A stretch of 64,000 bases of DNA from Microgenomates group bacterium (GTDB taxonomy: Bacteria > Patescibacteriota > Microgenomatia > UBA1406 > GWC2-37-13): NCBI GenBank assembly GCA_049304055.1, contig JBAQNT010000007.1, positions 55,370-119,369 of the forward strand, in the 5' to 3' direction. This document shows, one piece after another, positions 1,137 to 58,168 of the stretch. The position numbers and the translations under genes are program-made. Below the pieces are notes generated by a model, which ran no database searches, was not told the DNA's origin, and saw only the letters and a list, made by a program, of their open reading frames with translations. Position 1 is the stretch's first letter; the number at the start of each line of letters is the position of its first letter.

Positions 1137-1210
1137 TGCCCGGTCGTCTAACGGTAGGACATCAGACTCTGAATCTGATTATCTTGGTTCAAATCCAGGC
1201 TGGGCAACCA
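1137..1210 (+). tRNA. tRNA-Gln (anticodon CUG), CCA encoded
   Basis: Hand-folded cloverleaf. Acceptor TGCCCGG/CTGGGCA (one G-U pair), D-arm GTCT..GGAC, anticodon stem TCAGA/TCTGA with loop CTCTGAA (anticodon CTG). T-arm CTTGG/CCAGG with loop TTCAAAT, discriminator A, then CCA. Confidence 0.85.
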
Positions 1211-5345: not shown

Positions 5346-5353
5346 ATCAAGAT

Positions 5354-5362
5354 ACTATACCA
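5354..5362 (-). promoter_or_regulatory. Extended -10 promoter (TGgTATAGT) 8 nt upstream of the ATG at 5345
   Basis: The reverse complement of 5354-5362 reads TGGTATAGT. The gap to the start codon is 8 nt (5346-5353). Confidence 0.45.
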
Positions 5363-5449
5363 CAGCTACGTCTTAAACTCTAAACCCTATATCCCTTTTA
5401 GCTATAAGGTTGAATGTTTAAGCCTGCAGATTTGTAGTATATTTAATCT

Positions 5450-32355: not shown

Positions 32356-33114
32356 TTAGGCCGCTTCTTCTATTTCGACTCCGACAGAAAGTCCCATCGA
32401 AGACGCTATAAAGACATTCTTGATTTGTGCTTTTCCAACTGCATCGATAAATGCTTGCGCATTTTCTGTCAGCTGTTTGGAATCATAGCTTAATTTACCG
32501 ATCATCTGGTGGATGATAGGGAATTTTGGCTCTGTCTTCCAACGTAACGTTCCTTTCATGAATTTCTTTGCGACCTCATCTGGGGTTGCGGAAACTGTAC
32601 CTGCTTTTGGATTTGGCATAAGTCCCTTTGGTCCCAATACCTTTGCAAATCGTGCCAACTTTGACATGAATGAAGGATGAGTGATGAGGACATCAAACTC
32701 GATCTTACCTTGTGCGAGCTGCTCAAGGACCGTGTCATTTACTATTGCGACTCTTACTGTTTTTCCTGTTGAATGAGGAAGTTCCACTTCACCACGAAGA
32801 CCTGTCTTCACCACATTCATATGAAGGTCGACAGATTCATCAAATGATGCATATTTTGCCTTTTTGAGAAGTTCTATTGCCTCGGCGAGTTTCATCATCT
32901 TCTTTTCTCCCATCTTCTTTTTTGCCTCAAGATATTTCTTTCCTCTTACTTTTTTTGATACATTCTTTTTTGGTGTTGCAGCCTCCACTTTTACCTCTTT
33001 TTCACTTTTCTTTGATTCTACGACGACATCATTTTCTGTCTGCTCAGTAGATTCTGCCTTATGTTGTTTGTCGATATCGGCGAGTCCCACTATTTGTTTG
33101 CGATTTTTTCCCAT
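32356..33114 (-). CDS. rplA: 50S ribosomal protein L1 with a ~55-aa Lys/Glu-rich N-terminal extension
   Basis: The L1 core runs from RGKKYLEAKKK...FDESVDLHMNV...GKTVRVAIV...LGPKGLMPNPKAGTV. It is preceded by MGKNRKQIVGLADIDKQHKAESTEQTENDVVVESKKSEKEVKVEAATPKK. Confidence 0.9.
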   Translation of the reverse strand: MGKNRKQIVGLADIDKQHKAESTEQTENDVVVESKKSEKEVKVEAATPKKNVSKKVRGKKYLEAKKKMGEKKMMKLAEAIELLKKAKYASFDESVDLHMNVVKTGLRGEVELPHSTGKTVRVAIVNDTVLEQLAQGKIEFDVLITHPSFMSKLARFAKVLGPKGLMPNPKAGTVSATPDEVAKKFMKGTLRWKTEPKFPIIHQMIGKLSYDSKQLTENAQAFIDAVGKAQIKNVFIASSMGLSVGVEIEEAA

Positions 33115-34436: not shown

Positions 34437-34444
34437 GATTGAAT

Positions 34445-35098
34445 ATGACTGCAGAATTGGTTCATTCATTCATTCTAATAGTATGTATAGTCGTTTCCTT
34501 TATTTTTCCCCAGACAACTCTGGCTGCATATAATATTGAGCTTGCTGCATTGCTCTTAGTTATATTCTTCATAGCGCGAAGGTTTTCCTTTTTTTCACGA
34601 AGGACCCGCCTATTTGAATCGGTCATATTCACGCTTATCGTGCTTGGCACAGTCAATACCACAGGAGGCCTTCAATCTCCCTTCTTTTTCCTGGTCGATT
34701 TCCTTCTTTTTGCACTAGCACTCCTTCTGGAGCCCATTATCCCTATCATCGTGACGTTGGTTTTGATGTTGTTCTTCCTTGTTGGTGCCGAACAGACATC
34801 ATTCAATCAGCTTCTTCCCATTTTCTCTCTCGCACTCATGACGCCGTTTGCCATGATATTAGGGAACGAATATGAGGAAACAAAACAACTTAAAAAGACC
34901 ATCAGCTCCCAAACAGAAAATACGTTCCTGTTCATGTCCCTCATGCTCAAAAACCACCTCAAGGAGATGTCAACCCTCATCGATAACTTCAGAGGTGAAC
35001 ATGAGCTCAATTCACTGAGACGCCATATAACCAACGTTGAACGGCTTATAGACATGTTTGAAAAGCAAGAGCCAGGCGTGGATGGAGAAAAGAAATAA
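34445..35098 (+). CDS. Polytopic membrane protein with a C-terminal cytoplasmic helix (sensor-kinase-like N-terminal module, no ATPase domain)
   Basis: About 6 TM segments, a TGGLQSPFFFL motif, then a helical tail LKNHLKEMSTLIDNFRGEHELNSLRRHITNVERLIDMF. Confidence 0.5.
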   Translation: MTAELVHSFILIVCIVVSFIFPQTTLAAYNIELAALLLVIFFIARRFSFFSRRTRLFESVIFTLIVLGTVNTTGGLQSPFFFLVDFLLFALALLLEPIIPIIVTLVLMLFFLVGAEQTSFNQLLPIFSLALMTPFAMILGNEYEETKQLKKTISSQTENTFLFMSLMLKNHLKEMSTLIDNFRGEHELNSLRRHITNVERLIDMFEKQEPGVDGEKK

Positions 35099-35135: not shown

Positions 35136-35960
35136 ATGCATCGCGGATCCATTCTATCGAAGTTCTCCATAATCTTTGCCCTCGTCTCTCTGTCTGTTTA
35201 TGCAGCTGCACTCGTTTCACCTGTTTTTGCCATCAACATGAATTCGGATGAGTATCGCATCCAGTTTGGCACGGTAAACAGTGGAGGAAAGAAGATGACC
35301 GATTCAAGCTATAAATTAAGCACGTCCGTAGGTCAAGCCGCAGCAAAAGAGTTCCAATCAAACGGATATATCGTCAAGGCGGGGTTTCAATATATCTATT
35401 CCCGAATTCCTTTTACCTTTTCCCTTTCGACTGTCCGGGTCGATTTAGGGACCCTTATCCCGAATACCCCTTCAACTGGTACTGTGGGATTGGAAGTCTC
35501 TTTTGGTGGAGCCGGTCAATATTTGGTAACCGCACGAGCTGATAGTCCCTTATCGACAAACGCGTACACCAGCACCATCCCGTTTACCAGTTGTGATGGA
35601 GGCATTAATACCTGTACCATAACCGTAGCGAAGCCGTGGACAAGCACTTCACTCTACGGGTTTGGATACAATATGACAGGTGAGGATATTCCGACTGATT
35701 TTATTGACGGTACCTATTATCGTCCATTTTCCAATTTAGTGACTCCGGAGACTCCTGCCGTAGTCATGCAGAGCACCAATGTCACAGCAGATATCTCACC
35801 GACTCCCAATCCAGCCTTTACCCCTGCTCCCGTCCTTACCGGAGTCCCACGGGATACTGTCCATCAATCAACAATGACGATGAAGGTCAATATTTCCAGT
35901 ATCCAGCCCGCCGGTACCTATGCAACGATTGTGCGTTTTCTAGCAACACCATCGTTTTAA
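35136..35960 (+). CDS. Secreted beta-rich surface subunit (274 aa), paralogous in its C-terminal domain to the 517-aa protein at 40263
   Basis: Signal peptide ending SPVFA. N-terminal SxxYxL triplet pattern (SDEYRIQFG..SSYKLSTSVGQ..SNGYIVKAGFQYIY). The C-terminus is ISSIQPAGTYATIVRFLATPSF. Confidence 0.7.
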   Translation: MHRGSILSKFSIIFALVSLSVYAAALVSPVFAINMNSDEYRIQFGTVNSGGKKMTDSSYKLSTSVGQAAAKEFQSNGYIVKAGFQYIYSRIPFTFSLSTVRVDLGTLIPNTPSTGTVGLEVSFGGAGQYLVTARADSPLSTNAYTSTIPFTSCDGGINTCTITVAKPWTSTSLYGFGYNMTGEDIPTDFIDGTYYRPFSNLVTPETPAVVMQSTNVTADISPTPNPAFTPAPVLTGVPRDTVHQSTMTMKVNISSIQPAGTYATIVRFLATPSF

Positions 35961-35976
35961 ATAAAAATGTCAAATT

Positions 35977-37002
35977 ATGTTTAATAATCAAATCAAGATG
36001 AATTGTGCATTCAAGATTCCAAATTTGAGACATGTCATTGTATTGGTCTATTTGTTTATTGGTCTATTTGTTTATTCTGGCAGTGTGTTTGCCCAGCAGG
36101 TCACCCTTTCAATTGACCCCCCCATCGTCCAAGCAAAGATAAAACCTGGAAAATCAATATTGGTTGCCTATACCGTTGAAAATAAAGGCGACCCAACCAA
36201 TCTGCAGTTTCTTATTCGCCCCTTTATACCGGTAGGACAAAATGGGTCTCTCACTCTTGTCCCTCAGTTGGAAGGCCCCGTTCAATTCAATTTGGAAAAT
36301 GCCGACGTTATCCTTGAAAAGCCTTTTTTCTTTGCATCAAAAGAAAAAAGACAAGCAGTCGTGCGGATACACATCCCCAAAGGAATCCCTGATGGGGACT
36401 ACTACTACATGATAATCGCCGAAACAGTCCCTGCTTTTTCGCTTGCAGGCCAGTCAACAGGCGTTGCATCTGCATCGTTGGGTGCACCACTTCTCATCTC
36501 CGTGACTGAGTCCGGAATAACAGACATCCAAGCACAAATCGCTGAATTTTCATTCAAACCTAACACCATCGTCTCTCTTGGTAAACGGACGTTTCATATC
36601 GTAGACAGTGCTGACACTGTTACTGTTACTGGATCGGCGCGTAATATGGGTAAACACATGGTCCAACCAAATGGGATTATCACCCATCGATATGGAAGTA
36701 CAAAAAAGAACTATTCGATTGTTCCACAGAATATACTCAGCAATTCTCAACGTCTGCTCAAAGTAGATGGAGAGATCCAGGGGGACAGTACCACTACCGT
36801 ATCACTCCCCCATCTGACAATCGGTAAACATATTGTCACAGCGGCTATTTCATTTAATGACGATTCCTCCGTCCACTACAAAACCATTGAATTTATTGTT
36901 TTACCTATTCGGTTGTTGAAAATAGTGATGGTTTCATTTGGCTTGGTTGCTCTCTATTTTCTCTTGCGTCGTAAGAATAACCGAAATTCCCAAAAAAAAT
37001 AA
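35977..37002 (+). CDS. Secreted Ig-like protein with a C-terminal TM anchor and basic tail (341 aa)
   Basis: Signal peptide ending VFAQQ, then LSIDPPIVQAKIKPGKSILVAYTVENKGD. C-terminal VMVSFGLVALYFLLRRKNNRNSQKK. Confidence 0.7.
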   Translation: MFNNQIKMNCAFKIPNLRHVIVLVYLFIGLFVYSGSVFAQQVTLSIDPPIVQAKIKPGKSILVAYTVENKGDPTNLQFLIRPFIPVGQNGSLTLVPQLEGPVQFNLENADVILEKPFFFASKEKRQAVVRIHIPKGIPDGDYYYMIIAETVPAFSLAGQSTGVASASLGAPLLISVTESGITDIQAQIAEFSFKPNTIVSLGKRTFHIVDSADTVTVTGSARNMGKHMVQPNGIITHRYGSTKKNYSIVPQNILSNSQRLLKVDGEIQGDSTTTVSLPHLTIGKHIVTAAISFNDDSSVHYKTIEFIVLPIRLLKIVMVSFGLVALYFLLRRKNNRNSQKK

Positions 37003-37108
37003 AGAGCGCTAATGACACTATTTAGCCCTTCTGATTGATATATATCACCTCACTTGTTGCTTATAGTCCCTTGTGTCCCCTCTACTCCTTTGATATCTCT
37101 TTATAGAT

Positions 37109-37750
37109 ATGAACGGATTTATTGAATCCTGCAAACCCATCATAAAAAAATATCTATTTGAATGCACACTCCTTCTGGTTGCCTTCTGTATAGGATCCGT
37201 TTCTTTGTTATTGTTTATAAATGATTCGGACGTTGAAGTTTCAACTAAAACCCAAGTGGAAAGTGTGAAACCTGAGCAAAAGAGGGAAATCGTTGTTGAT
37301 GTTTCTGGTGCAGTCCACAAGCCATTCGTTTATACATTCACTCCATCAGCCCGTTTTATCGATGCGATTCAAAAAGCAGGAGGATTGACCGATGAGGCAG
37401 ATAAGGCATTTGTCTCAAGAAATATTAATTATGCACGTATCCTTTCGGACCAGGAAAAAATATATATCCCCACCCTCAGCGATACGACAAACGGGGTGAT
37501 TGGCGAAAATAAACGCATAATCGAATATATCCTACCCAACGCCTTTTCAAGTGTGACAAACGACACAAAGAAGACGAATATCAACACAGCTTCAGCTCTC
37601 CAATTGGATCAACTCCCTGGAGTCGGAAAAGTACAGGCAGAATCTATTATCCAGGGTAAACCTTATTATTCTTTGGAAGATCTGATTGACAAAGAAGTTG
37701 TCTCAAAGTCTACGTATGAAAAAATTAAGGACCTGATTAGTGTGTATTAA
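37109..37750 (+). CDS. comEA: Competence protein ComEA (DNA receptor)
   Basis: N-terminal TM, an SLBB-like region VDVSGAVHKPFVY, and the helix-hairpin-helix NINTASALQLDQLPGVGKVQAESII. Confidence 0.8.
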   Translation: MNGFIESCKPIIKKYLFECTLLLVAFCIGSVSLLLFINDSDVEVSTKTQVESVKPEQKREIVVDVSGAVHKPFVYTFTPSARFIDAIQKAGGLTDEADKAFVSRNINYARILSDQEKIYIPTLSDTTNGVIGENKRIIEYILPNAFSSVTNDTKKTNINTASALQLDQLPGVGKVQAESIIQGKPYYSLEDLIDKEVVSKSTYEKIKDLISVY

Positions 37751-37756
37751 AACAAC

Positions 37757-38554
37757 ATGAATCACCTCCTTGTAAATGCACTGATCGGAATCGATAACAC
37801 GCTCCATGAACCATATGCCTCTCTTTTAAAAGGGCTTGTATATGGCATTCCGATTCAAATAGATCCCCATTTAAAGTCGGCAATCGTTCAAAGCGGGCTT
37901 GCCCATCTGGTCGTTCTCTCGGGTACTAATATAACTCTCCTTGCATCGCTCACTGAGAGGATATTTTTCTTTTTGGGAAGAAAGATGGGAACTATGTTAC
38001 AGTTAGTATTTTTGGGCATGTTTACCGGTATGGTAGGGGCGCAACCACCTTTGATGCGGGCTATATTTATGTTTTTATGCACGACCGTTTGTTATATGAC
38101 TGGACGCCCCTCTTATGCACTCTGGAATTTATTTCTTTCGCTTCTCTGTATAGCTTTCATTTGGCCGCAGTGGCTGGAAACCGTTTCCCTCCATCTTTCC
38201 GTTGCGGCAACTATCGGCATCATCATATCTACACGATTGAAAAATCTCCTACCGATGAAGACACCTATATGGATTGATGTCCTTTTTGAGTCATGGATAG
38301 TATTTATTATTACCACCCCTCTTACTTTCTTTCATTTCAGGACCATCTCTTTGATAAGTCCAGTGAGTACAGCGCTTGCTTCGTGGATCATTGTCCCATT
38401 GATGATTGGAGGATTGTTTATATCTCTTGCATACCGACTTTTGCCCGTTGTCACCATCCCCATTTCAAGCGGTGTGTTCGCTGGATTAAGATATCTTCTC
38501 TGGGTCATAGAGATAACAAGTAGCATCCCTTTTGGGTACTTACAATTCAAATGA
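37757..38554 (+). CDS. comEC: ComEC/Rec2 membrane (competence channel) domain protein
   Basis: LLKGLVYGIPIQIDPHLKSAIVQSGLAHLVVLSGTNITLLA is the signature start of the Competence domain. Several TM segments follow. Confidence 0.75.
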   Translation: MNHLLVNALIGIDNTLHEPYASLLKGLVYGIPIQIDPHLKSAIVQSGLAHLVVLSGTNITLLASLTERIFFFLGRKMGTMLQLVFLGMFTGMVGAQPPLMRAIFMFLCTTVCYMTGRPSYALWNLFLSLLCIAFIWPQWLETVSLHLSVAATIGIIISTRLKNLLPMKTPIWIDVLFESWIVFIITTPLTFFHFRTISLISPVSTALASWIIVPLMIGGLFISLAYRLLPVVTIPISSGVFAGLRYLLWVIEITSSIPFGYLQFK

Positions 38555-38561
38555 AATACAT

Positions 38562-39302
38562 ATGCTCAGGATAGGAACCAGCATACTTTCTATTATCGTT
38601 TTATTATATTTTCAATCTGCGGTAACTCGTACCTCGCATATCATCTTTTGCGACATCGGACAAGGTTCAGCTACTTTTGTCACAGTCGGAAGCGTACAGA
38701 TACTTATAGATACCGGCCCCAATATGAGGACGCTCGCTTGTATTGGGAAACATATGCCATTCTTCGATCATACTATTGAATTTGTCATCATCTCTCATGA
38801 TCAAAAGGATCATGCGGGAGCACTTCCTGCTCTCCTTAAAAAATATAAGATTGGTCATATCATTGGTCCTCCTGAAATAGCCAAAAGAAACGGAAACATA
38901 CCCTTCACCACAGTGACGAACACCGTCAGATTCACGATTAATTCTCTTCAATTAATCATAATCAGGGCTTCTCAAAGCTCTACTGATTTGAACGAAGCAG
39001 CGAATGTTGTCACCATACGGTCCCCACTCCACGTCATATTCCTCACATCGGACATCAATGGATTTGAATTACAAAGGTTGATACCCACAGATACCACTAT
39101 CCTATCGATTCCCCATCATGGCTCCAAATATGGTCTCTATCCAGATTCACTTGGATTAGCACGTCCCACCCATGCAGTGATAAGTGTCGGAAAAAAGAAC
39201 ACATATGGCCATCCTTCGAAAGAGGTGTTGGATATATTGAAAGCCAAGAAGATACATCTATGGAGAACGGATGTGCAGGGAGAACTGGTGATTGACTTGT
39301 GA
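38562..39302 (+). CDS. ComEC-type metallo-beta-lactamase domain protein (separate ORF)
   Basis: One TM, then IIFCDIGQGSATFV, VIISHDQKDHAGAL and SIPHHGSKYG as found in ComEC C-terminal MBL domains. The track start at 38532 is a TTG that overlaps the previous ORF. Confidence 0.7.
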   Translation: MLRIGTSILSIIVLLYFQSAVTRTSHIIFCDIGQGSATFVTVGSVQILIDTGPNMRTLACIGKHMPFFDHTIEFVIISHDQKDHAGALPALLKKYKIGHIIGPPEIAKRNGNIPFTTVTNTVRFTINSLQLIIIRASQSSTDLNEAANVVTIRSPLHVIFLTSDINGFELQRLIPTDTTILSIPHHGSKYGLYPDSLGLARPTHAVISVGKKNTYGHPSKEVLDILKAKKIHLWRTDVQGELVIDL

Positions 39303-40049
39303 TTATGAAAGCAAGATCCCCTGGATTTCCTTGAATATATTCATTGCCTCAAAACCAATCCAGCTTTCGCCGATAAGTTCCTTGGGAAGTCCTGGGTCTT
39401 CTCTGAGGATTGATACATACTCTTTGAGAACGTTGGTGAATTTCTCCACCTTCTCTCCATCCCCCGATAATATGCTGTGCCATTTTTTGAACAGTTCCCG
39501 ATATTTCTTATCAAGAGAGGACTTGCCCCAAACCTTTTCGATGAGGGTAGCCTTGTCACCAAAAACATGATCTGCTTCAAATGACTGCATATACTGCTCT
39601 TCTTGTTTTCCTGATACGAGTTCACGAAGCGGCTCGATGATTGGGTGTGGAGTTAACCAAAAAGACCTATGCCAAGGCCCTAAACCCCATCCTTGCATCT
39701 CGCGTCTTAATCTGTCTCGCAACTCCCGTTTTGATTCCGGGATTTCATAGGAAATGATTCGAAGTTTTCCGTCCCATTGTTCTTTGAGGAATCGAAATGA
39801 TGGAAATTCGAGACTGAGTGCTCTAAATCCTTTCAGGGTCAATTTATAGGCAGGGACTTCATCCCGACTTGTACCCTTTTCTATCTCACCAACTTTGATG
39901 AGTGAAGAAAGGGTCGATTGTGTTTTTTGATTAAGTGTGAAGTCGAAGAGTTGTTGTGTTTTTTCATCCAACAAGACTTCGCTAAAGTCAACGTTTGATA
40001 AAAGAAAAAGAGCGAGTAATATTTTCGTCCGACGTTCTTTTATTCCCAT
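39303..40049 (-). CDS. PaaX-like transcriptional regulator family protein
   Basis: QWDGKLRIISYEIPESKRELRDRLRREMQGWGLGPWHRSFWLTPHP matches the PaaX C-terminal pattern. The ATG at 40049 was chosen because a near-consensus promoter ends 10 nt upstream of it. Confidence 0.6.
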   Translation of the reverse strand: MGIKERRTKILLALFLLSNVDFSEVLLDEKTQQLFDFTLNQKTQSTLSSLIKVGEIEKGTSRDEVPAYKLTLKGFRALSLEFPSFRFLKEQWDGKLRIISYEIPESKRELRDRLRREMQGWGLGPWHRSFWLTPHPIIEPLRELVSGKQEEQYMQSFEADHVFGDKATLIEKVWGKSSLDKKYRELFKKWHSILSGDGEKVEKFTNVLKEYVSILREDPGLPKELIGESWIGFEAMNIFKEIQGILLS

Positions 40050-40059
40050 ATATGCCACC

Positions 40060-40088
40060 ACTATAACAGACGGAAAAATACATGTCAA
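40060..40088 (-). promoter_or_regulatory. Sigma70-type promoter TTGACA-17-TATAGT, 10 nt before the ATG at 40049
   Basis: The reverse complement of 40083-40088 is TTGACA and of 40060-40065 is TATAGT. Confidence 0.6.
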
Positions 40089-40207
40089 TATGTAAATTGA
40101 AAATAATTGCGTCAATTTTTTAAAACAAAATAAGATGCAGATATGCTGCGGTAGAAGTTGGTGAGGTGACGTAAGCAAAAACAAACTAGAAACACATTAA
40201 AATACAT

Positions 40208-40236
40208 TTGACATTAGATGTGAAATCATCTTTAAT
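40208..40236 (+). promoter_or_regulatory. Sigma70-type promoter TTGACA-17-TTTAAT for the second surface cassette
   Basis: TTGACA at 40208-40213 and TTTAAT at 40231-40236, 26 nt upstream of the ATG at 40263. Confidence 0.5.
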
Positions 40237-40262
40237 GAAACTAATACCTTTAAGTTACTTAT

Positions 40263-41816
40263 ATGAAACTCATACCAAATATGAACAGAAATACGAAGCG
40301 ATGTTTTTCTTCCGTTGTATTGTTTTTCTTCTTGATTATGCAGGCACTTCCCTTCCTCCCTGCGTCTGTACTAGATATACCATTAATAAAAAAACTAAAT
40401 CAAAACAACCTGTCGTTTTTCCGTCCACATATGCTTGATGCAGCAGGACTTTCCTCAGCATCAGCAACGTTATCCAATCCACGTCTGTCATATCAAGCAG
40501 GTATCAGTACCACGATTGCAGCAGGAAACACAGTCATGACGATTACGGGATCCGGTAATGCAGACAATGATACAAATCACTTGTTCCCAAACGATCCTAT
40601 CGCTGTTGGGACGAATATGGGCATCAAGGTAACTTCGATAGTGGATGCGACGACTTTTACGATTGATACAGGACTTGCCACGGGCGTAACAAACACAAGC
40701 AAGGTCTATGCAACACAGTCAGGAACACTTACTACATCCTTTTATACTGCAAGCGCTATCCCAGTTGGAGGAAGTATCCGCATCGCAGTCCCTGCATCTG
40801 CGGGAAGTGTTTCCGGTAGTCCAAATGATGGTGCTCCAGATACTGCAACCTTAGCAAATAACGGATTTGATTTGAACTTTATCACAGCGAGTGATGTCAC
40901 CTGTCCTGGTGGATTTGCCGCAGGAACTCTTACGGCTGGTACTGGAGGACCTTCAAATCCACATATAATCACCTGTAATTGGTCAAACGGTACATCAGCT
41001 CTTCCTGCTGGAGCGAATCTCTCGGTGACAATCGGAACAGCTTCAAAAGGACTTGTTAACCCAGCACCTGCTGCAAGCCATGTCCAAGGACAAGCGGATT
41101 CCTATACTATTGACATCTCCACGAAAAGCACCGCAAACGGTGGTGGATCAACAATCGAAGATATTGGTACGAAAGTAGCTCCAGTTGAAGGAGTGTTGGT
41201 GTCTGCAACTATTGATGAAACGCTTAATTTTACCGTTGCAGCCGTAACTTCAGCGAACTTACCTACCACATGTGGCTTCACGCCAGCTGGTAACTTGATT
41301 ACCTCAACGGCCACGACAGTGCCTTTTGGAAACAGCATCACGGCAAATACGTTTTATAATGCCGCACAGCAATTGACGGTTTCAACGAATGCTCCTGGAG
41401 GATACAGTGTGAAAGTTGAGGAAAACGATCAAATGGGAAAAGAAGGTAAAGTTTGTACCGGAGCTGCGGCAGGAGAGTCAACAAACTGTATCAAGGATAC
41501 GACATGTGATGGCTCATCGTGTACGGAATCGACATCTGGCGATTGGGCAACAGGTACCAATAACGGTCTTGGTTATTCACTTGCTAATGTTTCAGGAACA
41601 AATGCGAGCTTTCTTTATAATGAATCTGCAAGAACATTCTCTGCAAAGCAATTCTCAGACCAGGAAGTTCCAGAGACAAAGCAGAATATCATGGCCTCGT
41701 CCGGCGTTGTAAGTGGTGATTCTGCCTGCATCATATACAGACTCTCTGTATCGGGTACACAGCCTGCAGGATACTACTACAACAAGGTTAAGTATACAGC
41801 CAGTGCAACATTTTAA
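40263..41816 (+). CDS. Secreted beta-rich surface subunit (517 aa)
   Basis: Signal-like N-terminus and a Thr/Gly/Ala-rich beta composition. The C-terminal domain ...TVSTNAPGGYSVKV...NNGLGYSL...SVSGTQPAGYYYNKVKYTASATF parallels the 274-aa protein. Confidence 0.75.
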   Translation: MKLIPNMNRNTKRCFSSVVLFFFLIMQALPFLPASVLDIPLIKKLNQNNLSFFRPHMLDAAGLSSASATLSNPRLSYQAGISTTIAAGNTVMTITGSGNADNDTNHLFPNDPIAVGTNMGIKVTSIVDATTFTIDTGLATGVTNTSKVYATQSGTLTTSFYTASAIPVGGSIRIAVPASAGSVSGSPNDGAPDTATLANNGFDLNFITASDVTCPGGFAAGTLTAGTGGPSNPHIITCNWSNGTSALPAGANLSVTIGTASKGLVNPAPAASHVQGQADSYTIDISTKSTANGGGSTIEDIGTKVAPVEGVLVSATIDETLNFTVAAVTSANLPTTCGFTPAGNLITSTATTVPFGNSITANTFYNAAQQLTVSTNAPGGYSVKVEENDQMGKEGKVCTGAAAGESTNCIKDTTCDGSSCTESTSGDWATGTNNGLGYSLANVSGTNASFLYNESARTFSAKQFSDQEVPETKQNIMASSGVVSGDSACIIYRLSVSGTQPAGYYYNKVKYTASATF

Positions 41817-41833
41817 TAATTACGCCCTATAAC

Positions 41834-42844
41834 ATGAAAAACACCATGCATACGATCAGAAGAACCTTTTTCGCTCTCTTAATAAGTGTCGTATGCTTTG
41901 CATCATATACCACCTACTCAATGGCTCAATCGGTGCTTCCTTTCACCATAAGTCCCGCACGACAACAGATCACCATCAATCCTGGAGAAGAAGCGCAGAT
42001 ATCAGTTAAATTTTATAATCAAAGCGATATTCCCGTAGCGGGAGTGGTAAAAGTAGCTGACTTTATCGTTGATGACGATAAGGGTACCCCACGTATCGTT
42101 GAAGATGTAACTCAAGCGTCCCCAAAATACTCCGCATCAGAATGGGTTACATTGCCATTTGATCGGATGGGTATCGCTGCAAACGATAAGACAGTCGTAC
42201 AAGCAACACTCAAAGTCCCCCAAGATGCACGACCGGGTGGAAGATATGCAGCTATTTATTTTGAACCCACCACAGCCGTTGCACAACCTGTTGGAGAAGC
42301 GGGCGCAAGTATCACCCCTCGTATAGCATCCCTCCTCTATATCCGTGTACAAGGACCTATGACTGAGTATGCTTTTATTTCAAATATGTTCGCACGTTCG
42401 TTTTATGAATATGGACCTATTGAAGTGACCGCACAAATCACCAATAAGGGAGATTATCATGTTCGCCCTCGTGGCACATTCACCCTGAGTAATACGTTTG
42501 GTGGAATGATAGAACAGACGAGCGTCAAGGAAGCAAATATCTTTCCAGATGCACTGCGCACATTTACGGCAACAGTGGGAACAAAATGGATGGCTGGCAG
42601 ATATAAGATAAGTCTTAATACATTGTATGGTGAACAGATGAAAGCAGCGGATAGATCCGTTTACGTCTGGGTATTTCCATGGAGAGCGGCAATAGTCGTA
42701 GCGCTCAGCCTGCTTATTCTTTGGATCATAGGGAGATCAATCTATAAGAATATCGTCATGAAGGAAGTAACACTCGAACAAGAGCTGTCCCATGACCGAG
42801 AAGAAATAGAAAAACTAAAGAAGCAACTGAACAAACGTGAATAA
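41834..42844 (+). CDS. Secreted Ig-like protein with a C-terminal TM anchor (336 aa), paralogue of 35977..37002
   Basis: Signal peptide, then FTISPARQQITINPGEEAQISVKFYNQSD. C-terminal TM AAIVVALSLLILWIIG plus a charged coiled tail. Confidence 0.75.
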   Translation: MKNTMHTIRRTFFALLISVVCFASYTTYSMAQSVLPFTISPARQQITINPGEEAQISVKFYNQSDIPVAGVVKVADFIVDDDKGTPRIVEDVTQASPKYSASEWVTLPFDRMGIAANDKTVVQATLKVPQDARPGGRYAAIYFEPTTAVAQPVGEAGASITPRIASLLYIRVQGPMTEYAFISNMFARSFYEYGPIEVTAQITNKGDYHVRPRGTFTLSNTFGGMIEQTSVKEANIFPDALRTFTATVGTKWMAGRYKISLNTLYGEQMKAADRSVYVWVFPWRAAIVVALSLLILWIIGRSIYKNIVMKEVTLEQELSHDREEIEKLKKQLNKRE

Positions 42845-42860
42845 CAGTCTGTCTAGTCAT

Positions 42861-43841
42861 ATGAGGACTATTCTATCCCTCACTATATTCTTCCTCATGT
42901 CGTCTATCCCAAGAGCTGTTTCTGCAGCTGTTATCAATCCAGTGGATAAGGAAGTAACCGTATCGGTGACCATCAGCAACAGTGTTGATGTGACCCCTAC
43001 CCCACCACCAAACGATAATCGTCGGTTTAGTATTTTTGGCAACACATCACCGAATGCAAAAGTGGTCATCCAGAATCCAGGGATACATAGTGAGACATAT
43101 GCCAATGCAGAAGGAGTTTTTAATTTTGAATATCTCTTCCTCGCACTCTTCCGTGAAGATATCTGTATCATTGCTCATGATACTGAGAACAGGAGCACCC
43201 CACCTCTGTGTATTCCACCCCCCCTCGATCAAGAAAACAAGAAAATTGGTCCTATACTATTACCTCCTTCAACCTCAATAAGCAGTGGAAACGCATATAT
43301 CGGAGATACTGTTACATTGACTGGTCAAACAATACCTAATGCAGACGTGAAGCTTTCAATGTTCACGGATGAATTGAAACAAAACAAAAAGCTGTCCCTT
43401 ATTCCATCTGCTTATGCTTATACCTTACCTCAGTTTGCCCTCAATTCAAACAAAAAAGGTGAATATTCCCTTACGCTGCCCACTGCTAGCTCGCAATTCT
43501 TAAGGATGTTCACACGGGCGATTTATGAAGGAAATTCAACACCTAAAGGTCTTACTCTCATCCTGGACATCTTCCCGCTCTGGATGATTCTTTTCAAATT
43601 TTTTTCGACCTATCTGACACTTCTTAAGAATCATCTTGTCGAGCTCATTATCCTTCTCCAGCTTTACTTCCTTCTCATGTACTTCCTCAAACATTATTTC
43701 CATCCACACACCATCAGTAATCATAGGAAAAACTGGCTTGCGCTGCGTCAGACGACACTCATGAGTATGCCACACGAGCTTGCGATGAAGGAACATCGCG
43801 AGTTGGTTATCCGCTCGGTCGCTCTCGCTCTGTCTTATTGA
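42861..43841 (+). CDS. Secreted protein with two Ig-like segments and a hydrophobic C-terminal region
   Basis: Signal peptide MRTILSLTIFFLMSSIPRAVSAA. FGNTSPNAKVVIQNPG.. and GDTVTLTGQTIPNADVKL are beta-sandwich-like. TM-like LILDIFPLWMILF... The track start at 42837 is a GTG. Confidence 0.6.
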   Translation: MRTILSLTIFFLMSSIPRAVSAAVINPVDKEVTVSVTISNSVDVTPTPPPNDNRRFSIFGNTSPNAKVVIQNPGIHSETYANAEGVFNFEYLFLALFREDICIIAHDTENRSTPPLCIPPPLDQENKKIGPILLPPSTSISSGNAYIGDTVTLTGQTIPNADVKLSMFTDELKQNKKLSLIPSAYAYTLPQFALNSNKKGEYSLTLPTASSQFLRMFTRAIYEGNSTPKGLTLILDIFPLWMILFKFFSTYLTLLKNHLVELIILLQLYFLLMYFLKHYFHPHTISNHRKNWLALRQTTLMSMPHELAMKEHRELVIRSVALALSY

Positions 43842-44251
43842 TAGAAAGATAATCTCGCCTTTTGAGGTAGTTTAAGTTCGTCTATGCTGATTTCTAGGTA
43901 ATATTCTCCAGGTGTGGTCGAAGAGAGATCGAACTGAGCCTTACCCGTAGCATCTGTTGCCTCTTGTACCGCAGTAAGCACCAATCGTGGATCCTGACTG
44001 AGTAGGACTTTCTTTCCGAAAACTCCAAGTCCCTGACTGTTCAACACGAAGACGGTAACTCGTATTTTTTCTTTTCCGTCAGATTGGGCCTTCAATGGAT
44101 TGGTGAACACATAGGAATTGTCAACGGAGATGTCCACCTTTACACTACTTGCCCTACTTCCAAAGAACTGTGTCTCATAAAAAAAGAAGAAGAGAGAGAA
44201 CGAAATAAGGACAAGGAAAAATAAAATGGCTGATAACAAGAACTTCTGCAT
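43835..44251 (-). CDS. Membrane-anchored Ig-like (Big-type) domain protein (138 aa)
   Basis: N-terminal TM LLSAILFFLVLISFSLFFFF, then KIRVTVFVLNSQGLGVFGKKVLL...TDATGKAQFDLSSTTPGEYYL. TGcTATACT extended -10 lies 6 nt before the ATG. Confidence 0.6.
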   Translation of the reverse strand: MQKFLLSAILFFLVLISFSLFFFFYETQFFGSRASSVKVDISVDNSYVFTNPLKAQSDGKEKIRVTVFVLNSQGLGVFGKKVLLSQDPRLVLTAVQEATDATGKAQFDLSSTTPGEYYLEISIDELKLPQKARLSFYQ

Positions 44252-44616: not shown

Positions 44617-44644
44617 TTGACACTATTATTATTATTGTTATATG
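44617..44644 (+). promoter_or_regulatory. Sigma70-type promoter TTGACA-16-TATATG (TG-extended), 9 nt before the ATG at 44654
   Basis: TTGACA at 44617-44622 and TGtTATATG at 44636-44644. The track start ATG at 44642 lies inside the -10 element. Confidence 0.5.
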
Positions 44645-44653
44645 CTGAGATAT

Positions 44654-45115
44654 ATGTCGAATAGGTATAATTTTTTTTATTTCGAGGCTACATTTAAAAA
44701 ATACCTTCATGCGGGAAACGCAGGAGCCGCCACTATCAAGAGCTATCTCTCAGATCTCCATTTTTTCTTTACGTGGATGCAAAATGAAAAGGAAATTAGT
44801 GAATTAGACCTATATGACGCTCCAAACATATTTACTCACTCATTGGTTCACGAATATCATTCATTCCTTCTAGCCTCGAAAACCCCCTCCTCTACGTATG
44901 ATAGGCGCCTCTCAAGCCTCAGACAGTTCTTTGCCTTCTGCGTGGCCCAGGCGTGGCTAAAATCCAACCCTGCACATGAGTTTGATAGATACACCAAGAC
45001 AGACCAACTGAACGACATTATTACTAGATTCAAAGATCACTTGAAGACCAAAAAGGTCAGTGATGACGTATTAGCGCGTCACATCAATACGATTAGAAAC
45101 CTTATTATCAATTAA
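44654..45115 (+). CDS. Stand-alone phage-integrase N-terminal SAM-like (core-binding) domain protein, with no catalytic domain
   Basis: TIKSYLSDLHFFFTWM and YDRRLSSLRQFFAFCVAQAWLKSNPA fit the tyrosine-recombinase core-binding domain. The ORF stops after about 153 aa without an R..HxxR..Y catalytic domain. Confidence 0.6.
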   Translation: MSNRYNFFYFEATFKKYLHAGNAGAATIKSYLSDLHFFFTWMQNEKEISELDLYDAPNIFTHSLVHEYHSFLLASKTPSSTYDRRLSSLRQFFAFCVAQAWLKSNPAHEFDRYTKTDQLNDIITRFKDHLKTKKVSDDVLARHINTIRNLIIN

Positions 45116-45395: not shown

Positions 45396-48300
45396 ATGAA
45401 GATACTAACAAATAAGACAATTAGCTCCTTCCTCTCCAAACTCACCCTTGACTCTATTCCTGTGCATGAAAAAGTAGAAAAGATCCAATTTGTCGTCCAG
45501 TTCATTGATTGGTTGACCGACAGTAAAGAACTCTCTCCTGGAGACGCGATACGATTTCGCAACGAATTATATAAGAAAAAGAGAGAGTTATCATATAAAC
45601 AGGCTCCAAAACTCTCATTACCTTTAAAATATGTTGGATTTAGCCTCGGAATACTATCGTTACTCCTGGTCGTGGGAGGTATATATATCCGCTTTTTCCG
45701 CAATACCAATACGCCGTTTGCTTATTCTACGGCTCCCGTACAGGCTGGACGTACCATATCATTCCAAGGTCGCCTGACTGACTCACTGGGTAACCCCATC
45801 AACGCCCCCATTGACATTACCTACAACTTTTATACTGCTCCAACCGGTGGAACTCCTATAACCGGATCAACAAGAGTCTGTACTGCAGGACCAGACCAAG
45901 ATGGCGTATTCTCATCCTTAATCGGTAATGATTCAGGACCAAGCTGTAATACGGAACTCCCCAACTCCATATTCACTGAGAATACAACGGTATATTTGGG
46001 TGTTACTGTTGGAACTGAACCAAGCGAGATGACCCCCAGACAGCAGATTGCGAACGTAGGATATGCAATCAATTCAGAGACACTGCAGGGCATGCCGCCA
46101 GGCCAATCTGTCTCCAACGTCCCCTTTATCAATCAGGATGGTAACATGCTAATCGGCGCCTCAAACCCAGGTATACGTTCTACCTATGCAAGCTCTAACT
46201 TCACCATATCGAGCGCTCAGGCAACAACCATACAATCAGCAGGAAGTGGGGATATTACCCTCTCTGCAAGTGAGGGAGGAAGCTTACGATTCAAGGCATA
46301 TAACGGTACGCTAGAGGAGGTTATGACCATCCTCAACACCGGGAGAGTCGGTATTGGCATAACTGCCCCACGAGCGCTACTTGACGTAAATGGAGATGCA
46401 ACTGTATCGGGAAGCCTTATCGCAGGAGGTCAAATCAAGGTTGGAGAGTTTACCTCCCCACCCACGAATCTGGGAAATGGCTCTTTATACTATGACAGCA
46501 ATACAAACAAGATATATTTCTGGAACGGCACTGCTTGGGCAGATATGGGATCAGGGACAACCCAGTACTTTCAACGAACACTGGGAAGCTTGGCTCCCAC
46601 CTACATCACCGATGATATCAACCTTGGAGCTGTGGCAACAGGAAGCGCTATAGTACATCTTCCTGGAACTAACAATCAGAATGCATGGTTCAATTTGGGA
46701 ACGGGAAATGTGGGAATTGGAACGACTGCTCCTCTATCCAAATTCAGTATTGGAGCAAGTGGGGATCCAAGTTATACTGCGTACATATCTAACGGCGATG
46801 ATTACGGTATATTTGGAAGTGGTAATAACTATGGAGTGTATGGATCAGGTGGCAGTGCCGGCGTTTATGGTTTTAGCTCAACCAATAATGGAGTACTTGG
46901 TTCTGCTGCGGGCACGGGTACTGGTCTATATGGCACAAATAGCGGAGGTGGATTTGGTGCATATGCCACTTCCGTATCTGGAACCGGAGGTTATTTTGCT
47001 TCAACAAATGGTGTCGCACTTATTACAGGTACTGGCAATGTCGGTATCGGAAATCCTTCCCCTACAGCTAAACTTGATGTGAGCGGTAACTTAAAAGTAA
47101 GTACTTATGCCACTGTGTCTGGTTCGTTAGCCCTAGGTACATCTAACGCAGCTGCAGGTCCTGGCAACTTAAGTATGTCCGGAAATCTCCTCACGGATGG
47201 AAGTATAACGTTCTCATCGTTAGCCACCGGTATCGTACGGAGCACTTCCGGATTACTGTCATCATCTGCAATCAATCTTGCAAGTGCAGATGTCACAGGC
47301 CTTCTTTCATCAACAAATGGAGGAACAGGTGCAGACAATTCAAGTGCAGCACAATACAGCGTTCCATATTACTCCTCAACGGGAGTGCTTGGTGGAATTC
47401 TCACACCCGGATCAGTTGGATATGTACTCTCCACCAATGGCGCAGGAGGCGCTCCTTCATGGATAAATGCATCTGGAGTAGGTACGAACTATTGGGAAAT
47501 CGCAAACGGCGCACTTTATCCAGTAAATGCTACGCTCGACGCTTTTATAGGAGGTGCAGCGTCTGCATCAGCTAAATTTGCATTCCTTAATGTCAGCTCC
47601 GGCACTCCTACCGCTTCGATATCTGGCACAACTGCAAACGTAAATACTTTCATTGATGGAAATGGAAATATAGGGACGACAAATAGGACTTCGCTCGTAC
47701 TGGGAAACTCAGCCACATATGACTCAACAGGCAATATCTTACTCAACCCGAACGGGACGGGAAATGTAGGTATTGGGACAACTAATCCGGACTATGCATT
47801 GGATGTTGCAGGAAATGTGGGGATCAATGAATACATCTATCATAATGATAATAATCAGCGTGATTACTTCAGATTCTTGAATGATAGGGCGATATTGGTA
47901 ACAGGCAATAGTGTAATATTCGACACACAAAGTGAAAATTTCAACGTGAAAAGCGGTACATTATTTGTACAGAATTCGTCAAGCAATGTAGGTATCGGAA
48001 ATATCACTCCTGCACAAAAGCTTGATGTTGTCGGCAATGCCACTGTTTCTGGTGACTTGATGGCAGGTGGGCAGCTTCAAATCGGACGTTTTGGCTCTGA
48101 GCCAACCGCAGTAGGTGTCGGATCCTTCTACTTCAACACGACAGATAATACACCTTATTATCATAATGGGACAACATGGACTGCTTTTTCTTCAGGTGGC
48201 GCAAACTATTGGAACATCTCAAGCGGTGCTATATATCCGATAAACTCCACACTCGACATGCTTATCGGCGGTACGGCCTCTGCATCCGCTAAGTTTGCAT

Positions 48301-57381: not shown

Positions 57382-57403
57382 GTTATCATTATGACATATA
57401 TCC

Positions 57404-58108: not shown

Positions 58109-58126
58109 TAGTAAAATCGTCTCCTG

Positions 58127-58156
58127 TTGACACCTCATTTTTGTTACACTGAATAT
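58127..58156 (+). promoter_or_regulatory. Candidate promoter TTGACA-18-GAATAT, 12 nt before the ATG at 58169
   Basis: TTGACA at 58127-58132 and GAATAT at 58151-58156. Confidence 0.4.
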
Positions 58157-58168
58157 ATCTCATTTTAT

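What the first reader, a model, noticed from the sequence alone, without database searches (positions are those of the whole stretch)
35136..43841. Two paralogous surface cassettes (secreted beta-rich subunit plus C-terminally anchored Ig-like partner) flank the DNA-uptake genes
Cassette 1 comprises 35136-35960 (274 aa) and 35977-37002 (341 aa). Cassette 2 comprises 40263-41816 (517 aa), 41834-42844 (336 aa) and an extra secreted protein at 42861-43841.

The subunits share a C-terminal domain:
- ..L.F.V..V.L(G)...; VS(T/F)(N/G)A.GGY/QYLV
- a Cys-containing loop
- G(F/L)GY
- a near-identical terminal strand, SSIQPAGTYATIVRFLATPSF versus VSGTQPAGYYYNKVKYTASATF

The partners both start, after the signal peptide, with ..I.P....I.I.PG....I.V.(F/Y).N..D. 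Both end in one TM plus a basic or charged tail.

This layout is reminiscent of the WxL/DUF916 cell-surface complexes of Firmicutes and of chaperone-assisted fibre systems, but I see no WxL or LPxTG motifs. comEA, the split comEC and a PaaX-like regulator lie between the cassettes. This raises the possibility of a surface fibre functionally tied to DNA uptake or host attachment.
Basis: partly seen in the sequence, partly recalled or inferred. Interest (0 to 1): 0.66.

Follow-up and report, generated by a model that had tools for sequence, protein, structure and literature searches.

The report
Pam-type pilus genes, split in two
The two gene cassettes are real paralogues and together encode a Pam-type pilus, a thin surface fibre of ultra-small CPR bacteria first described in a 2026 preprint. 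This makes them a new member of a known system, and the DNA-uptake genes between them look like a lineage-specific insertion.

Summary
All five ORFs exist as stated.

- **Subunits:** profile comparison gives 99% probability, E 5e-18, over the C-terminal domain.
- **Partners:** profile comparison gives 98.9% probability, E 4e-17, over the full length.

The system is a Roizmanbacteria/Microgenomates version of the CPR "Pam" pilus (Troman et al., bioRxiv 2026).

- **S1** is a PamT-like tip subunit.
- **S2** is a two-domain shaft pilin. Its inter-domain linker is the most conserved segment and the least confidently modelled, as expected of a donor strand.
- **C1 and C2** are membrane-anchored, two-Ig-domain chaperones. 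C2 aligns at E 4.5e-35 to the protein next to a bona fide Pam pilin in a Saccharimonadales genome.
- **The third protein** has PamR-like anchor architecture.

The WxL/DUF916 hunch is half right. The chaperones are DUF916/WxLIP relatives, and the best solved-structure match is E. faecium WxLIP. The subunits are not detectable WxL domains.

comEA and comEC lie between the cassettes in 48 of 50 related genomes. In a more distant locus the cassettes are contiguous with no comE, so a functional tie to DNA uptake is unsupported.

Novelty: new member of a known kind. Interest is moderate.

The parts
34439..35098 (+). Polytopic membrane protein (219 aa) with a helical C-terminal tail, immediately upstream of S1. 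It is a possible accessory component with no assigned role.
   Evidence: It is adjacent to S1 in 78 of 80 related loci. It has 4-5 hydrophobic segments. It has no Pfam or NCBIfam hit. No profile similarity was found to the positionally analogous gene in L083.
35136..35960 (+). S1: a PamT-like single-domain subunit and probable distal tip. It has a signal peptide, a conserved ~60-aa N-terminal segment and a Pam-type C-terminal domain (residues ~100-274).
   Evidence: NCBIfam NF058579 PamT scores 41 bits (cutoff 240) and NF058581 Pam_pilin_C scores 21.7 bits (cutoff 55). All 41 family members hit PamT (best E 5.8e-19) and 39 of 41 hit Pam_pilin_C. hhalign to the S2 C-terminal domain gives E 5e-18.
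35977..37002 (+). C1: a membrane-anchored two-domain chaperone (PamC/PamD-like), paralogue of C2 and probable partner of S1.
   Evidence: hhalign C1 family vs C2 family gives 98.9%, E 3.8e-17. hhalign vs the Saccharimonadales Pam-locus chaperone P0512 gives 98.9%, E 2.8e-17. The C-terminal hydrophobic helix spans residues 306-324. It is adjacent to S1 in 72 of 80 loci.
37109..39302 (+). comEA plus comEC split into two ORFs (37757-38554 competence domain; 38532-39302 MBL domain). This is an intervening block and is not judged part of the pilus system.
   Evidence: The genes match NCBIfam TIGR01259, TIGR00360 and TIGR00361. The block lies between the cassettes in 48 of 50 loci, is inverted in several, and is absent from L083 and L081.
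39303..40184 (-). PaaX-like regulator, divergently transcribed from S2. It is the probable transcriptional regulator of cassette 2.
   Evidence: Pfam PaaX_M scores E 1e-17 and PaaX_C scores E 2e-7. It is divergently adjacent to S2 in 47 of 50 loci, including rearranged ones.
40263..41816 (+). S2: a PamA-like two-domain shaft pilin. It has a signal peptide, an N-terminal beta-sandwich (residues ~66-305), a linker and a C-terminal incomplete-Ig-type domain (residues ~321-517).
   Evidence: The AF2 model has pLDDT 88. 25 of 51 relatives hit NF058581. hhalign to a bona fide Pam pilin (L081:1160-2185, 170 bits on NF058581) gives 89%, E 2e-6, across the linker. There are 568 homologues; every one that carries a source name is labelled Roizmanbacteria, Microgenomates or Patescibacteria.
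41178..41225 (+). S2 linker (residues 306-321, VAPVEGVLVSATIDETL), the putative donor strand.
   Evidence: It is the most conserved 10-residue block of the protein (0.86) yet has the lowest pLDDT (47). It aligns to the MTVSASVPETLTF segment of the Saccharimonadales Pam pilin. The preprint identifies the linker as the donated strand.
41834..42844 (+). C2: a membrane-anchored two-Ig-domain chaperone (PamC/PamD-like; DUF916/WxLIP relative), probable partner of S2.
   Evidence: The AF2 model has pLDDT 86, with beta-sandwich domains at 37-145 and 164-280 and a helix at 283-335. Foldseek top hits are 9i1y/9i25 WxLIP (E 4e-13), then RbmA and the CfaA, CsuC, YadV, FimC-complex and CupB2 chaperones. 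hhalign to P0512 gives 99.9%, E 4.5e-35. Pfam PF06030 scores 21.8 bits against a gathering score of 27.3.
42269..42355 (+). C2 residues 146-174: a disordered loop followed by the strand RIASLLYIRVQG. This is the putative strand donated to the subunit groove (F1-G1-like hairpin).
   Evidence: pLDDT is below 50 at residues 150-159, followed by the strand 164-172. R163, A165, L167, Y169 and V172 are invariant or nearly so. The equivalent unstructured hairpin of WxLIP is predicted to order and complete the WxL sandwich.
42861..43841 (+). Third protein: a PamR-like terminator/anchor candidate. It has a signal peptide, a short conserved N-terminal strand (VTVSVTIS, nt 42951-42977), two Ig-like domains and a C-terminal membrane anchor.
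   Evidence: The alignment of 36 homologues shows the motif [VT]xVS[AV]x[IV]G, two invariant Cys, an IGPVILPPT inter-domain linker and a hydrophobic C-terminus. Hydrophobic segments lie at 230-255 and 258-276. It follows C2 in 44 of 46 loci. The architecture matches the preprint's description of PamR. No structure was predicted.
43835..44251 (-). Small Big_1 (bacterial Ig-like) protein with an N-terminal membrane segment. It is a conserved neighbour of unknown relation to the pilus.
   Evidence: Pfam Big_1 scores E 4.7e-12. It is conserved after the third protein in most loci.

Best explanation
The two cassettes are the two halves of one Pam-type pilus system of a Roizmanbacteria/Microgenomates-like CPR bacterium.

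Proposed mechanism:
1. All five proteins are exported by Sec.
2. C1 and C2 stay anchored in the cytoplasmic membrane by a C-terminal helix. Each uses a flexible hairpin (C2 residues ~146-174) to supply the missing beta-strand of the incomplete Ig-like C-terminal domain of its neighbouring subunit. This is donor-strand complementation.
3. S1 has only that C-terminal domain plus a short N-terminal segment. It can accept a strand but has no N-terminal domain or linker to donate, so it caps the distal tip.
4. S2 polymerises by inserting its inter-domain linker (VLVSATIDETL) into the C-terminal domain of the previously added subunit. This is donor-strand exchange.
5. The third protein ends growth by inserting its similar N-terminal strand (VTVSVTIS) into the last S2, and it ties the fibre to the membrane.

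The fibre most likely mediates contact with a host or prey cell. The PaaX-like gene is probably the regulator of cassette 2.

What is shown and what is inferred:
- Shown: the paralogy, homology to Pam components, the domain architectures and the conserved gene pairing.
- Inferred: strand exchange, the order of assembly, which chaperone serves which subunit, and the function.
For: - Paralogy is established.
- The whole S1 family hits the NCBIfam PamT and Pam_pilin_C models, and half of the S2 family hits Pam_pilin_C.
- In Saccharimonadales locus L081, a pilin above the NF058581 cutoff (170 vs 55 bits) is immediately followed by P0512. P0512 aligns to the C2 family at 99.9%, E 4.5e-35, to window C2 by plain BLASTP at E 7e-34, and to the C1 family at E 2.8e-17.
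- The S2 profile aligns to that pilin across the linker.
- The S2 AF2 model has two beta domains. Its linker is both the most conserved and the least confidently modelled segment.
- The C2 AF2 model has two Ig-like domains plus a TM helix. Its best solved-structure matches are WxLIP and pilus chaperones.
- The third protein has the PamR architecture.
- The subunit-then-chaperone gene order recurs in 80 relatives and in distant loci L083-L085. L083 carries S1-like, C1-like, S2-like and C2-like genes contiguously.
- Every homologue that carries an organism label is Roizmanbacteria, Microgenomates or Patescibacteria; several TPA MAG records titled 'uncultured Gammaproteobacteria' carry the same locus and look mislabelled. 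This matches the preprint's statement that Pam homologues occur in Microgenomatia, including a Roizmanbacteria PamA-like protein.
Against: - Every window protein scores below the curated NCBIfam cutoffs. S2 itself has no hit at all.
- No NCBIfam Pam model matched the C2 or third-protein families.
- The S2-to-Pam-pilin profile match is only 89% probability.
- Foldseek of full-length S2 gave only low-TM matches (CfaB, CfaE, CupB6, SafDAA, TasA, MSCRAMMs). The PamA/PamB structures were not in the library searched.
- No multimer models could be made, so strand insertion is not demonstrated.
- S1's conserved N-terminal segment could itself be a donor, which would make S1 something other than a tip.
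- There are no expression or microscopy data for this lineage.
Confidence: 0.78

Rival explanations
1. A WxL-cluster-like, non-filamentous surface complex. The membrane-anchored DUF916-type partner permanently holds a small and a large subunit at the cell surface, and the large subunit's N-terminal domain binds a ligand. No polymerisation occurs.
For: - The best solved-structure match of C2 is E. faecium WxLIP, including the WxLIP-long WxL complex 9i25.
- 19 of 46 C2 relatives hit PF06030.
- NCBI names related proteins 'DUF916 domain-containing'.
- The layout of small subunit, large subunit and TM-anchored partner matches the published WxL cluster definition.
- WxLIP is predicted to complete the WxL sandwich with an unstructured hairpin, and C2 has an equivalent hairpin.
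Against: - No WxL Pfam domain or dual W-x-L motif is present in S1, S2 or the S1 family.
- The subunits match Pam pilin models instead.
- The S2 linker motif is conserved with a pilin family shown by cryo-EM to polymerise through that linker.
- A separate anchor-like protein with a linker-like N-terminal strand is present.
- There is no DUF3324 hit.
Confidence: 0.12
2. The fibre is functionally coupled to natural competence. It captures or guides DNA to ComEA/ComEC, which explains why the comE genes sit between the cassettes.
For: - comEA lies between the cassettes in 48 of 50 related genomes.
- The genes remain clustered in rearranged loci such as L023, L024, L046 and L053.
Against: - All 80 loci come from one fairly narrow lineage (S1 identity 44-72%), so the synteny may be inherited rather than selected.
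- The comE block is inverted independently in about ten loci, which implies separate transcription.
- The distant locus L083 has the four pilus genes contiguous without comE. L081, L084 and L085 show no comE nearby.
- The Pam preprint reports ATP-synthase and tail-fibre-like neighbours and never mentions comE.
- There is no retraction ATPase.
- A type IV pilin-like gene exists elsewhere in the window.
Confidence: 0.06
3. Unrelated secreted Ig-like adhesins with membrane-anchored Ig-like proteins that merely resemble pilus components through the common beta-sandwich fold. No shared assembly system is involved.
For: - Ig-like folds are ubiquitous.
- C2 Foldseek also lists RbmA, ciliary and transglutaminase Ig domains.
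- All curated-model hits for the window proteins are below cutoff.
Against: - Sequence-level profile matches at E 1e-17 to 1e-35 link the proteins to components of a bona fide Pam locus.
- The whole S1 family matches the PamT and Pam_pilin_C models.
- Subunit-chaperone adjacency is strictly conserved across distant lineages.
Confidence: 0.03

Closest known systems
Pam pilus of CPR bacteria (PamA/B/E pilins, PamT tip, PamC/PamD membrane-anchored chaperones, PamR anchor; Troman et al., bioRxiv 10.64898/2026.03.03.709456)
   Same: - The component set is the same: a single-domain tip-like subunit, a two-domain pilin with a conserved linker, two paralogous chaperones with a C-terminal TM helix, and an anchor-like protein with an N-terminal strand, two Ig/FnIII-like domains and a TM.
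- The taxonomic range is CPR (every homologue that carries an organism label).
- Sequence-profile links to Pam models and to a bona fide Pam locus were found.
- A giant tail-fibre-like protein lies nearby, as the preprint reports.
   Different: - The proteins are too divergent to pass the NCBIfam cutoffs.
- Only one shaft pilin is present, rather than PamA, PamB and PamE.
- The genes are split into two cassettes separated by comEA, split comEC and a PaaX-like gene, rather than forming one operon.
- No ATP synthase genes lie in the 64-kb window.
- No experimental filament evidence exists for this lineage.
WxL clusters of Firmicutes (small WxL + large WxL + WxLIP = DUF916-DUF3324-TM; Siezen 2006; Hassan et al. 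2023, PMC10599100; PDB 9i1y/9i25)
   Same: - The partner proteins share the WxLIP architecture, and WxLIP is their best solved-structure match.
- Sub-threshold DUF916 Pfam hits occur in the C2 family.
- Both have a small and a large subunit sharing a C-terminal domain.
- In both, a partner hairpin is predicted to complete the subunit's sandwich.
   Different: - The subunits have no WxL motif or domain.
- There is no DUF3324 hit.
- The C1 family has no DUF916 hit.
- WxL proteins are thought to be peptidoglycan-bound and are not known to polymerise.
- The taxonomic range differs.
Chaperone-usher pili, especially archaic/alternative classes (Csu, CFA/I, Pap/Fim)
   Same: - The two-Ig-domain chaperone fold matches (CfaA, CsuC, YadV, FimC, CupB2, EcpB).
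- The subunits have an incomplete-Ig-type domain.
- The C-terminal strand motif (PAG.Y...[VI].[FY]...F-COOH) resembles those pilins by my own reading.
- Assembly uses donor-strand logic.
   Different: - There is no outer-membrane usher and no outer membrane.
- The chaperones are membrane-anchored rather than soluble.
- The donor strand is an internal linker, not an N-terminal extension.
- The pilin carries an extra N-terminal domain.
- There are no PapD Pfam hits.

Membership tests
Pam pilus system (CPR) | [quoted passage not shown] | tested here: met
   The AF2 model of S2 has beta domains at 66-305 and 321-517 with the linker at 306-320. The linker is the most conserved block at 0.86. hhalign across the linker to a pilin scoring 170 bits on NF058581 gives 89%, E 2e-6. 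The open groove itself could not be inspected.
Pam pilus system (CPR) | Match to NCBIfam NF058581 (Pam_pilin_C, cutoff 55 bits) or NF058579 (PamT, cutoff 240 bits) above the curated cutoff | tested here: not met
   S1 scores 21.7 and 41.2 bits. S2 has no hit. Family-wide sub-threshold hits were found: 41 of 41 and 39 of 41 for S1 relatives and 25 of 51 for S2 relatives. The proteins are therefore distant relatives, not equivalogs.
Pam pilus system (CPR) | Two paralogous PapD/FimC-like chaperones that carry a C-terminal transmembrane helix | tested here: met
   The C2 AF2 model has two Ig-like domains and a TM helix. Foldseek places it with pilus chaperones and WxLIP. C1 and C2 are paralogues. 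Both align to the chaperone-position protein of bona fide Pam locus L081, at E 4.5e-35 and 2.8e-17.
Pam pilus system (CPR) | Single-domain tip subunit (PamT) lacking the N-terminal domain and linker | tested here: inconclusive
   S1 aligns to the PamT model (HMM positions 6-134) and to the S2 C-terminal domain only. No structure was predicted. The role of its conserved N-terminal 60 residues is unknown.
Pam pilus system (CPR) | PamR-type anchor: an N-terminal strand, two FnIII/Ig-like domains and a C-terminal TM | tested here: inconclusive
   The architecture was read from the 36-sequence alignment and from hydropathy. There is no model or profile match to PamR itself and no structure prediction.
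Pam pilus system (CPR) | Assembles into extracellular filaments by donor-strand exchange | not testable with these tools
   This needs multimer modelling, cryo-EM or cryo-ET.
WxL cluster (Firmicutes) | At least two proteins with a C-terminal WxL domain (dual Trp-x-Leu; Pfam WxL) | tested here: not met
   No WxL Pfam hit was found for S1, S2 or the 41 S1 relatives. No W-x-L pair is visible in the sequences.
WxL cluster (Firmicutes) | WxLIP partner made of DUF916 (PF06030), DUF3324 and a C-terminal TM helix | tested here: inconclusive
   C2 scores 21.8 bits on PF06030 against a gathering score of 27.3. 19 of 46 relatives hit it. The best Foldseek match is WxLIP 9i1y/9i25 over both domains. The TM helix is present. 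There is no DUF3324 hit. The C1 family has no DUF916 hit.
Chaperone-usher pili | Outer-membrane usher and soluble periplasmic PapD-family chaperone | tested here: not met
   No usher or PapD Pfam hits were found in the cassette proteins or in the neighbours scanned. The chaperones are membrane-anchored.
Sortase-assembled pili | LPxTG sorting signal on the subunits and a sortase gene | tested here: not met
   I saw no LPxTG motif on reading S1, S2 or the third protein. No sortase hit was found among the neighbours scanned.
Type IV / competence pili | Prepilin N-terminal methylation motif on the subunits | tested here: not met
   S1 and S2 have no N_methyl hit. Such a motif occurs only in an unrelated gene at 57404-58108.

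The most novel reading that the evidence does not exclude
The CPR Pam pilus and the Firmicute WxL/WxLIP surface clusters may be branches of one ancient system that is very widespread and not confined to single-membrane bacteria. In this system a membrane-anchored DUF916-type chaperone completes, and may hand over, incomplete-Ig subunits without an usher.

Supporting observations:
- The C2 profile finds 7,925 representative clusters.
- Relatives also occur in Actinomycetota and Deinococcus.

If this reading is true, WxL proteins might also assemble by strand exchange, and Pam pilins would be highly diverged counterparts of WxL domains. None of the papers retrieved makes this connection.
Probability: 0.3. 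Interest if true: 0.7.

Novelty: new member of a known kind. Interest (0 to 1): 0.42.

Why it matters
Pam pili were identified only in 2026, in a single cultured Saccharimonadia parasite. This window gives a complete candidate parts list (tip, shaft, two chaperones, anchor, regulator) for the Microgenomatia version. Current curated models miss that version, and databases label its proteins 'hypothetical'.

The work also yields testable sequence features:
- the S2 linker VLVSATIDETL
- the linker-like N-terminal strand of the anchor
- the C2 hairpin at residues 146-174

It further shows that the Pam chaperones belong to the DUF916/WxLIP superfamily. That suggests a route to understanding the long-unexplained WxL clusters of lactic acid bacteria and enterococci.

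Finally, it cautions against reading function into the comE adjacency.

Tried and rejected
- **Direct Pfam and NCBIfam scans of the window proteins** gave almost nothing above threshold.
- **PDB sequence searches** with single proteins and with profiles found nothing relevant.
- **Foldseek of full-length S2** gave only low-TM multi-domain matches. It did not list the WxL chain of 9i25 among the top 50. The PamA/PamB entries (25PZ/25QA) appear not to be in the April 2026 copy.
- **NCBIfam scans of the C2 and third-protein families** found no Pam chaperone or PamR model.
- **Pfam scans** found no WxL hit in the S1 family and no DUF916 hit in the C1 family.
- **The third protein** is not related to C1, C2, S1 or S2 by hhalign.
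- **The upstream membrane protein** shows no profile similarity to positionally analogous genes in distant loci.
- **The promoter and terminator scan** was no better than shuffled sequence.
- **Intergenic spacers** of 16-17 nt show no obvious shared signal.
- **Small secreted proteins upstream of DUF916 genes in Clavibacter and Deinococcus** show no profile similarity to S1 or S2. Only a similar C-terminal strand motif is visible by eye.
- **The S1 profile did not align significantly to the L081 Pam pilin** (25% probability), although both hit the same NCBIfam model.

Full report
**1. Observation**

The five ORFs exist exactly as described. Composition, ribosomal-protein neighbours and all homologues place the window in a Roizmanbacteria/Microgenomates-type CPR bacterium.

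Formal comparison confirms both paralogies.
- S1 vs S2: BLASTP E 2e-6. Family profiles give 99.0% probability, E 5.3e-18, with S1 100-274 aligned to S2 344-512.
- C1 vs C2: BLASTP E 1e-5. Profiles give 98.9% probability, E 3.8e-17, over 302 columns.
- Cross-family controls are all below 15% probability.

All five proteins have signal-type N-termini. C1 and C2 each have one C-terminal hydrophobic helix. The third protein has a C-terminal anchor of one or two helices, so it is not simply secreted.

**2. What it is**

NCBIfam gave the first lead. S1 weakly hits 'CPR-type pilus protein PamT' and 'Pam pilus system pilin subunit'. These models derive from a 2026 preprint. That work used cryo-EM to show that the parasite Ca. 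Mycosynbacter amalyticus makes filaments of PamA and PamB.
- The operon also encodes membrane-anchored PapD/FimC-like chaperones PamC and PamD, a single-domain tip PamT, and an RbmA-like anchor PamR with an N-terminal strand and a C-terminal TM.
- Language-model searches extended PamA to Microgenomatia, including a Roizmanbacteria protein.

Each component has a counterpart in the window.

*S1.* All 41 sampled relatives hit PamT (best E 5.8e-19) and 39 hit Pam_pilin_C (best E 1e-12), all below the cutoffs.

*S2.* 25 of 51 relatives hit Pam_pilin_C. The AF2 model (pLDDT 88) has beta domains at 66-305 and 321-517. They are joined by a linker with pLDDT below 50. The block VLVSATIDET in that linker is the most conserved in the protein. 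A segment that is highly conserved but unstructured in the monomer is what a donated strand should look like.

*C2.* The AF2 model (pLDDT 86) has two Ig-like domains, a disordered hairpin at 146-163 and a TM helix. Foldseek ranks E. faecium WxLIP first (9i1y/9i25, E 4e-13). RbmA and the pilus chaperones CfaA, CsuC, YadV, FimC, CupB2 and EcpB follow.

*Third protein.* The alignment of 36 homologues shows a conserved N-terminal strand [VT]xVS[AV]x[IV]G, two Ig-like domains and a hydrophobic C-terminus. This is the PamR architecture. The strand resembles the S2 linker.

**3. Direct bridge to a bona fide Pam locus**

An exhaustive profile search with the C2 family found 7,925 representative clusters. 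One of them, P0512, is named 'DUF916 domain-containing protein' by NCBI and comes from a Saccharimonadales genome.

In that genome (locus L081) P0512 lies immediately after a pilin that scores 170 bits on NF058581, well above the cutoff of 55.
- P0512 aligns to the C2 family at 99.9%, E 4.5e-35.
- It aligns to window C2 by plain BLASTP at E 7e-34.
- It aligns to the C1 family at E 2.8e-17.
- The S2 profile aligns to the L081 pilin across the linker, VSATIDETLNF against VSASVPETLTF (89%, E 2e-6).

**4. Context and the comE question**

A scan of one genome per species found 157 relatives of S1, and 80 loci were examined. The typical gene order is below, with + and - marking strand.
- L1-, L11-, NusG-, SecE-
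- membrane protein+, S1+, C1+
- comEA+, comEC-N+, comEC-C+
- PaaX-, S2+, C2+, anchor+, Big_1-, integrase-SAM-like+, giant+

Conservation figures:
- comEA lies between the cassettes in 48 of 50 loci.
- S1 is adjacent to C1 in 72 of 80 loci.
- The anchor follows C2 in 44 of 46 loci.
- The PaaX-like gene is divergent from S2 in 47 of 50 loci.

This is one lineage, however, with S1 identity of 44-72%. The comE block inverts on its own in about ten loci.

More distant loci argue against a functional link.
- L083 carries S1-like (E 4e-42), C1-like, S2-like (E 1.5e-74) and C2-like genes contiguously, followed by a large Ig-repeat protein. It has no comE.
- L081, L084 and L085 also lack comE nearby.

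The two cassettes are therefore halves of one system. The comEA/comEC/PaaX insertion is lineage-specific.

**5. WxL connection**

It also extends further. C2 finds DUF916 proteins on Clavibacter and Deinococcus plasmids.

The published WxL model has a small WxL protein, a large WxL protein and WxLIP, whose unstructured hairpin completes the WxL sandwich. This mirrors the Pam logic. The subunits here show no WxL domain. The Pam preprint does not mention WxL or DUF916, and no paper retrieved links them. Homology of the chaperones is well supported. Homology of the whole systems remains open.

**6. Verdict**

It is a divergent Microgenomatia member of the recently described Pam pilus system and not a new kind of system. 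Strand exchange, assembly order and function are inferred. The DNA-uptake link is not supported.

Noticed in passing
window 34439-35098 (+): A 219-aa polytopic membrane protein with a helical C-terminal tail sits directly upstream of S1 in 78 of 80 related loci. It matches no known family. A membrane protein of similar layout but no detectable similarity occupies the same position in distant locus L083.
   Followed up: partly
window 37757-38554 and 38532-39302 (+); loci L025, L029, L035, L062, L067: ComEC is encoded as two overlapping ORFs, one for the competence domain and one for the MBL domain. The split is conserved in nearly all 80 relatives. In five of them an extra PaaX-like ORF lies between the halves, so the split is genuine and not a frameshift error.
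   Followed up: partly
window 45396-53957 (+), 58115-64000 (+, runs off the end), 14592-20531 (-): Three giant ORFs are present (2853 aa, at least 1962 aa, and 1979 aa). The 2853-aa ORF has no Pfam hit. It is full of repeats of the type GNVGIGTT.P...LDV.G and is conserved downstream of the pilus genes, so it is probably the 'tail fibre-like' neighbour mentioned in the Pam preprint. The terminal ORF explains the high GC and GC skew after 60 kb.
   Followed up: partly
window 1179-4283 (-): The leucyl-tRNA synthetase carries an alpha/beta-hydrolase (Ser_hydrolase-like) domain inserted at residues ~465-639.
   Followed up: no
window 57404-58108 (+) and 55648-57561 (-): A type IV pilin-like protein with an N-terminal methylation motif lies next to an O-antigen-ligase-like membrane protein. 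The organism therefore also has type IV pilin genes that are separate from the Pam-like system.
   Followed up: no
window 44642-45115 (+): A 157-aa protein consists only of a phage-integrase N-terminal SAM-like domain, with no catalytic domain. It is conserved between the Big_1 gene and the giant ORF in many relatives.
   Followed up: no
window 32356-33114 (-): Ribosomal protein L1 carries a ~70-residue Lys/Glu-rich N-terminal extension.
   Followed up: no
loci L004, L005, L008, L010-L012 and many others: Many TPA MAG records titled 'uncultured Gammaproteobacteria bacterium' carry this Roizmanbacteria-type locus with the same ribosomal-protein synteny. Their titles are evidently mislabelled. 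P0448 labelled 'Pseudomonadales' (L084) may be another case.
   Followed up: no
L086 (Clavibacter phaseoli plasmid pCCh 5242-7056) and L087 (Deinococcus sp. NW-56 plasmid 4935-6822): DUF916-type relatives of C2 (hhalign 97%, E ~1e-11) occur outside CPR and Firmicutes. Each is preceded by a small secreted protein whose C-terminal strand (…AGDYSSTITLSLFE) looks like the Pam pilin terminal motif, although profiles detect no similarity.
   Followed up: partly
L084 6848-11049; L013, L016, L032, L074: Some relatives carry two S2-like pilin genes around or next to the chaperone gene. This is reminiscent of PamA/PamB/PamE multiplicity. The window has only one.
   Followed up: no
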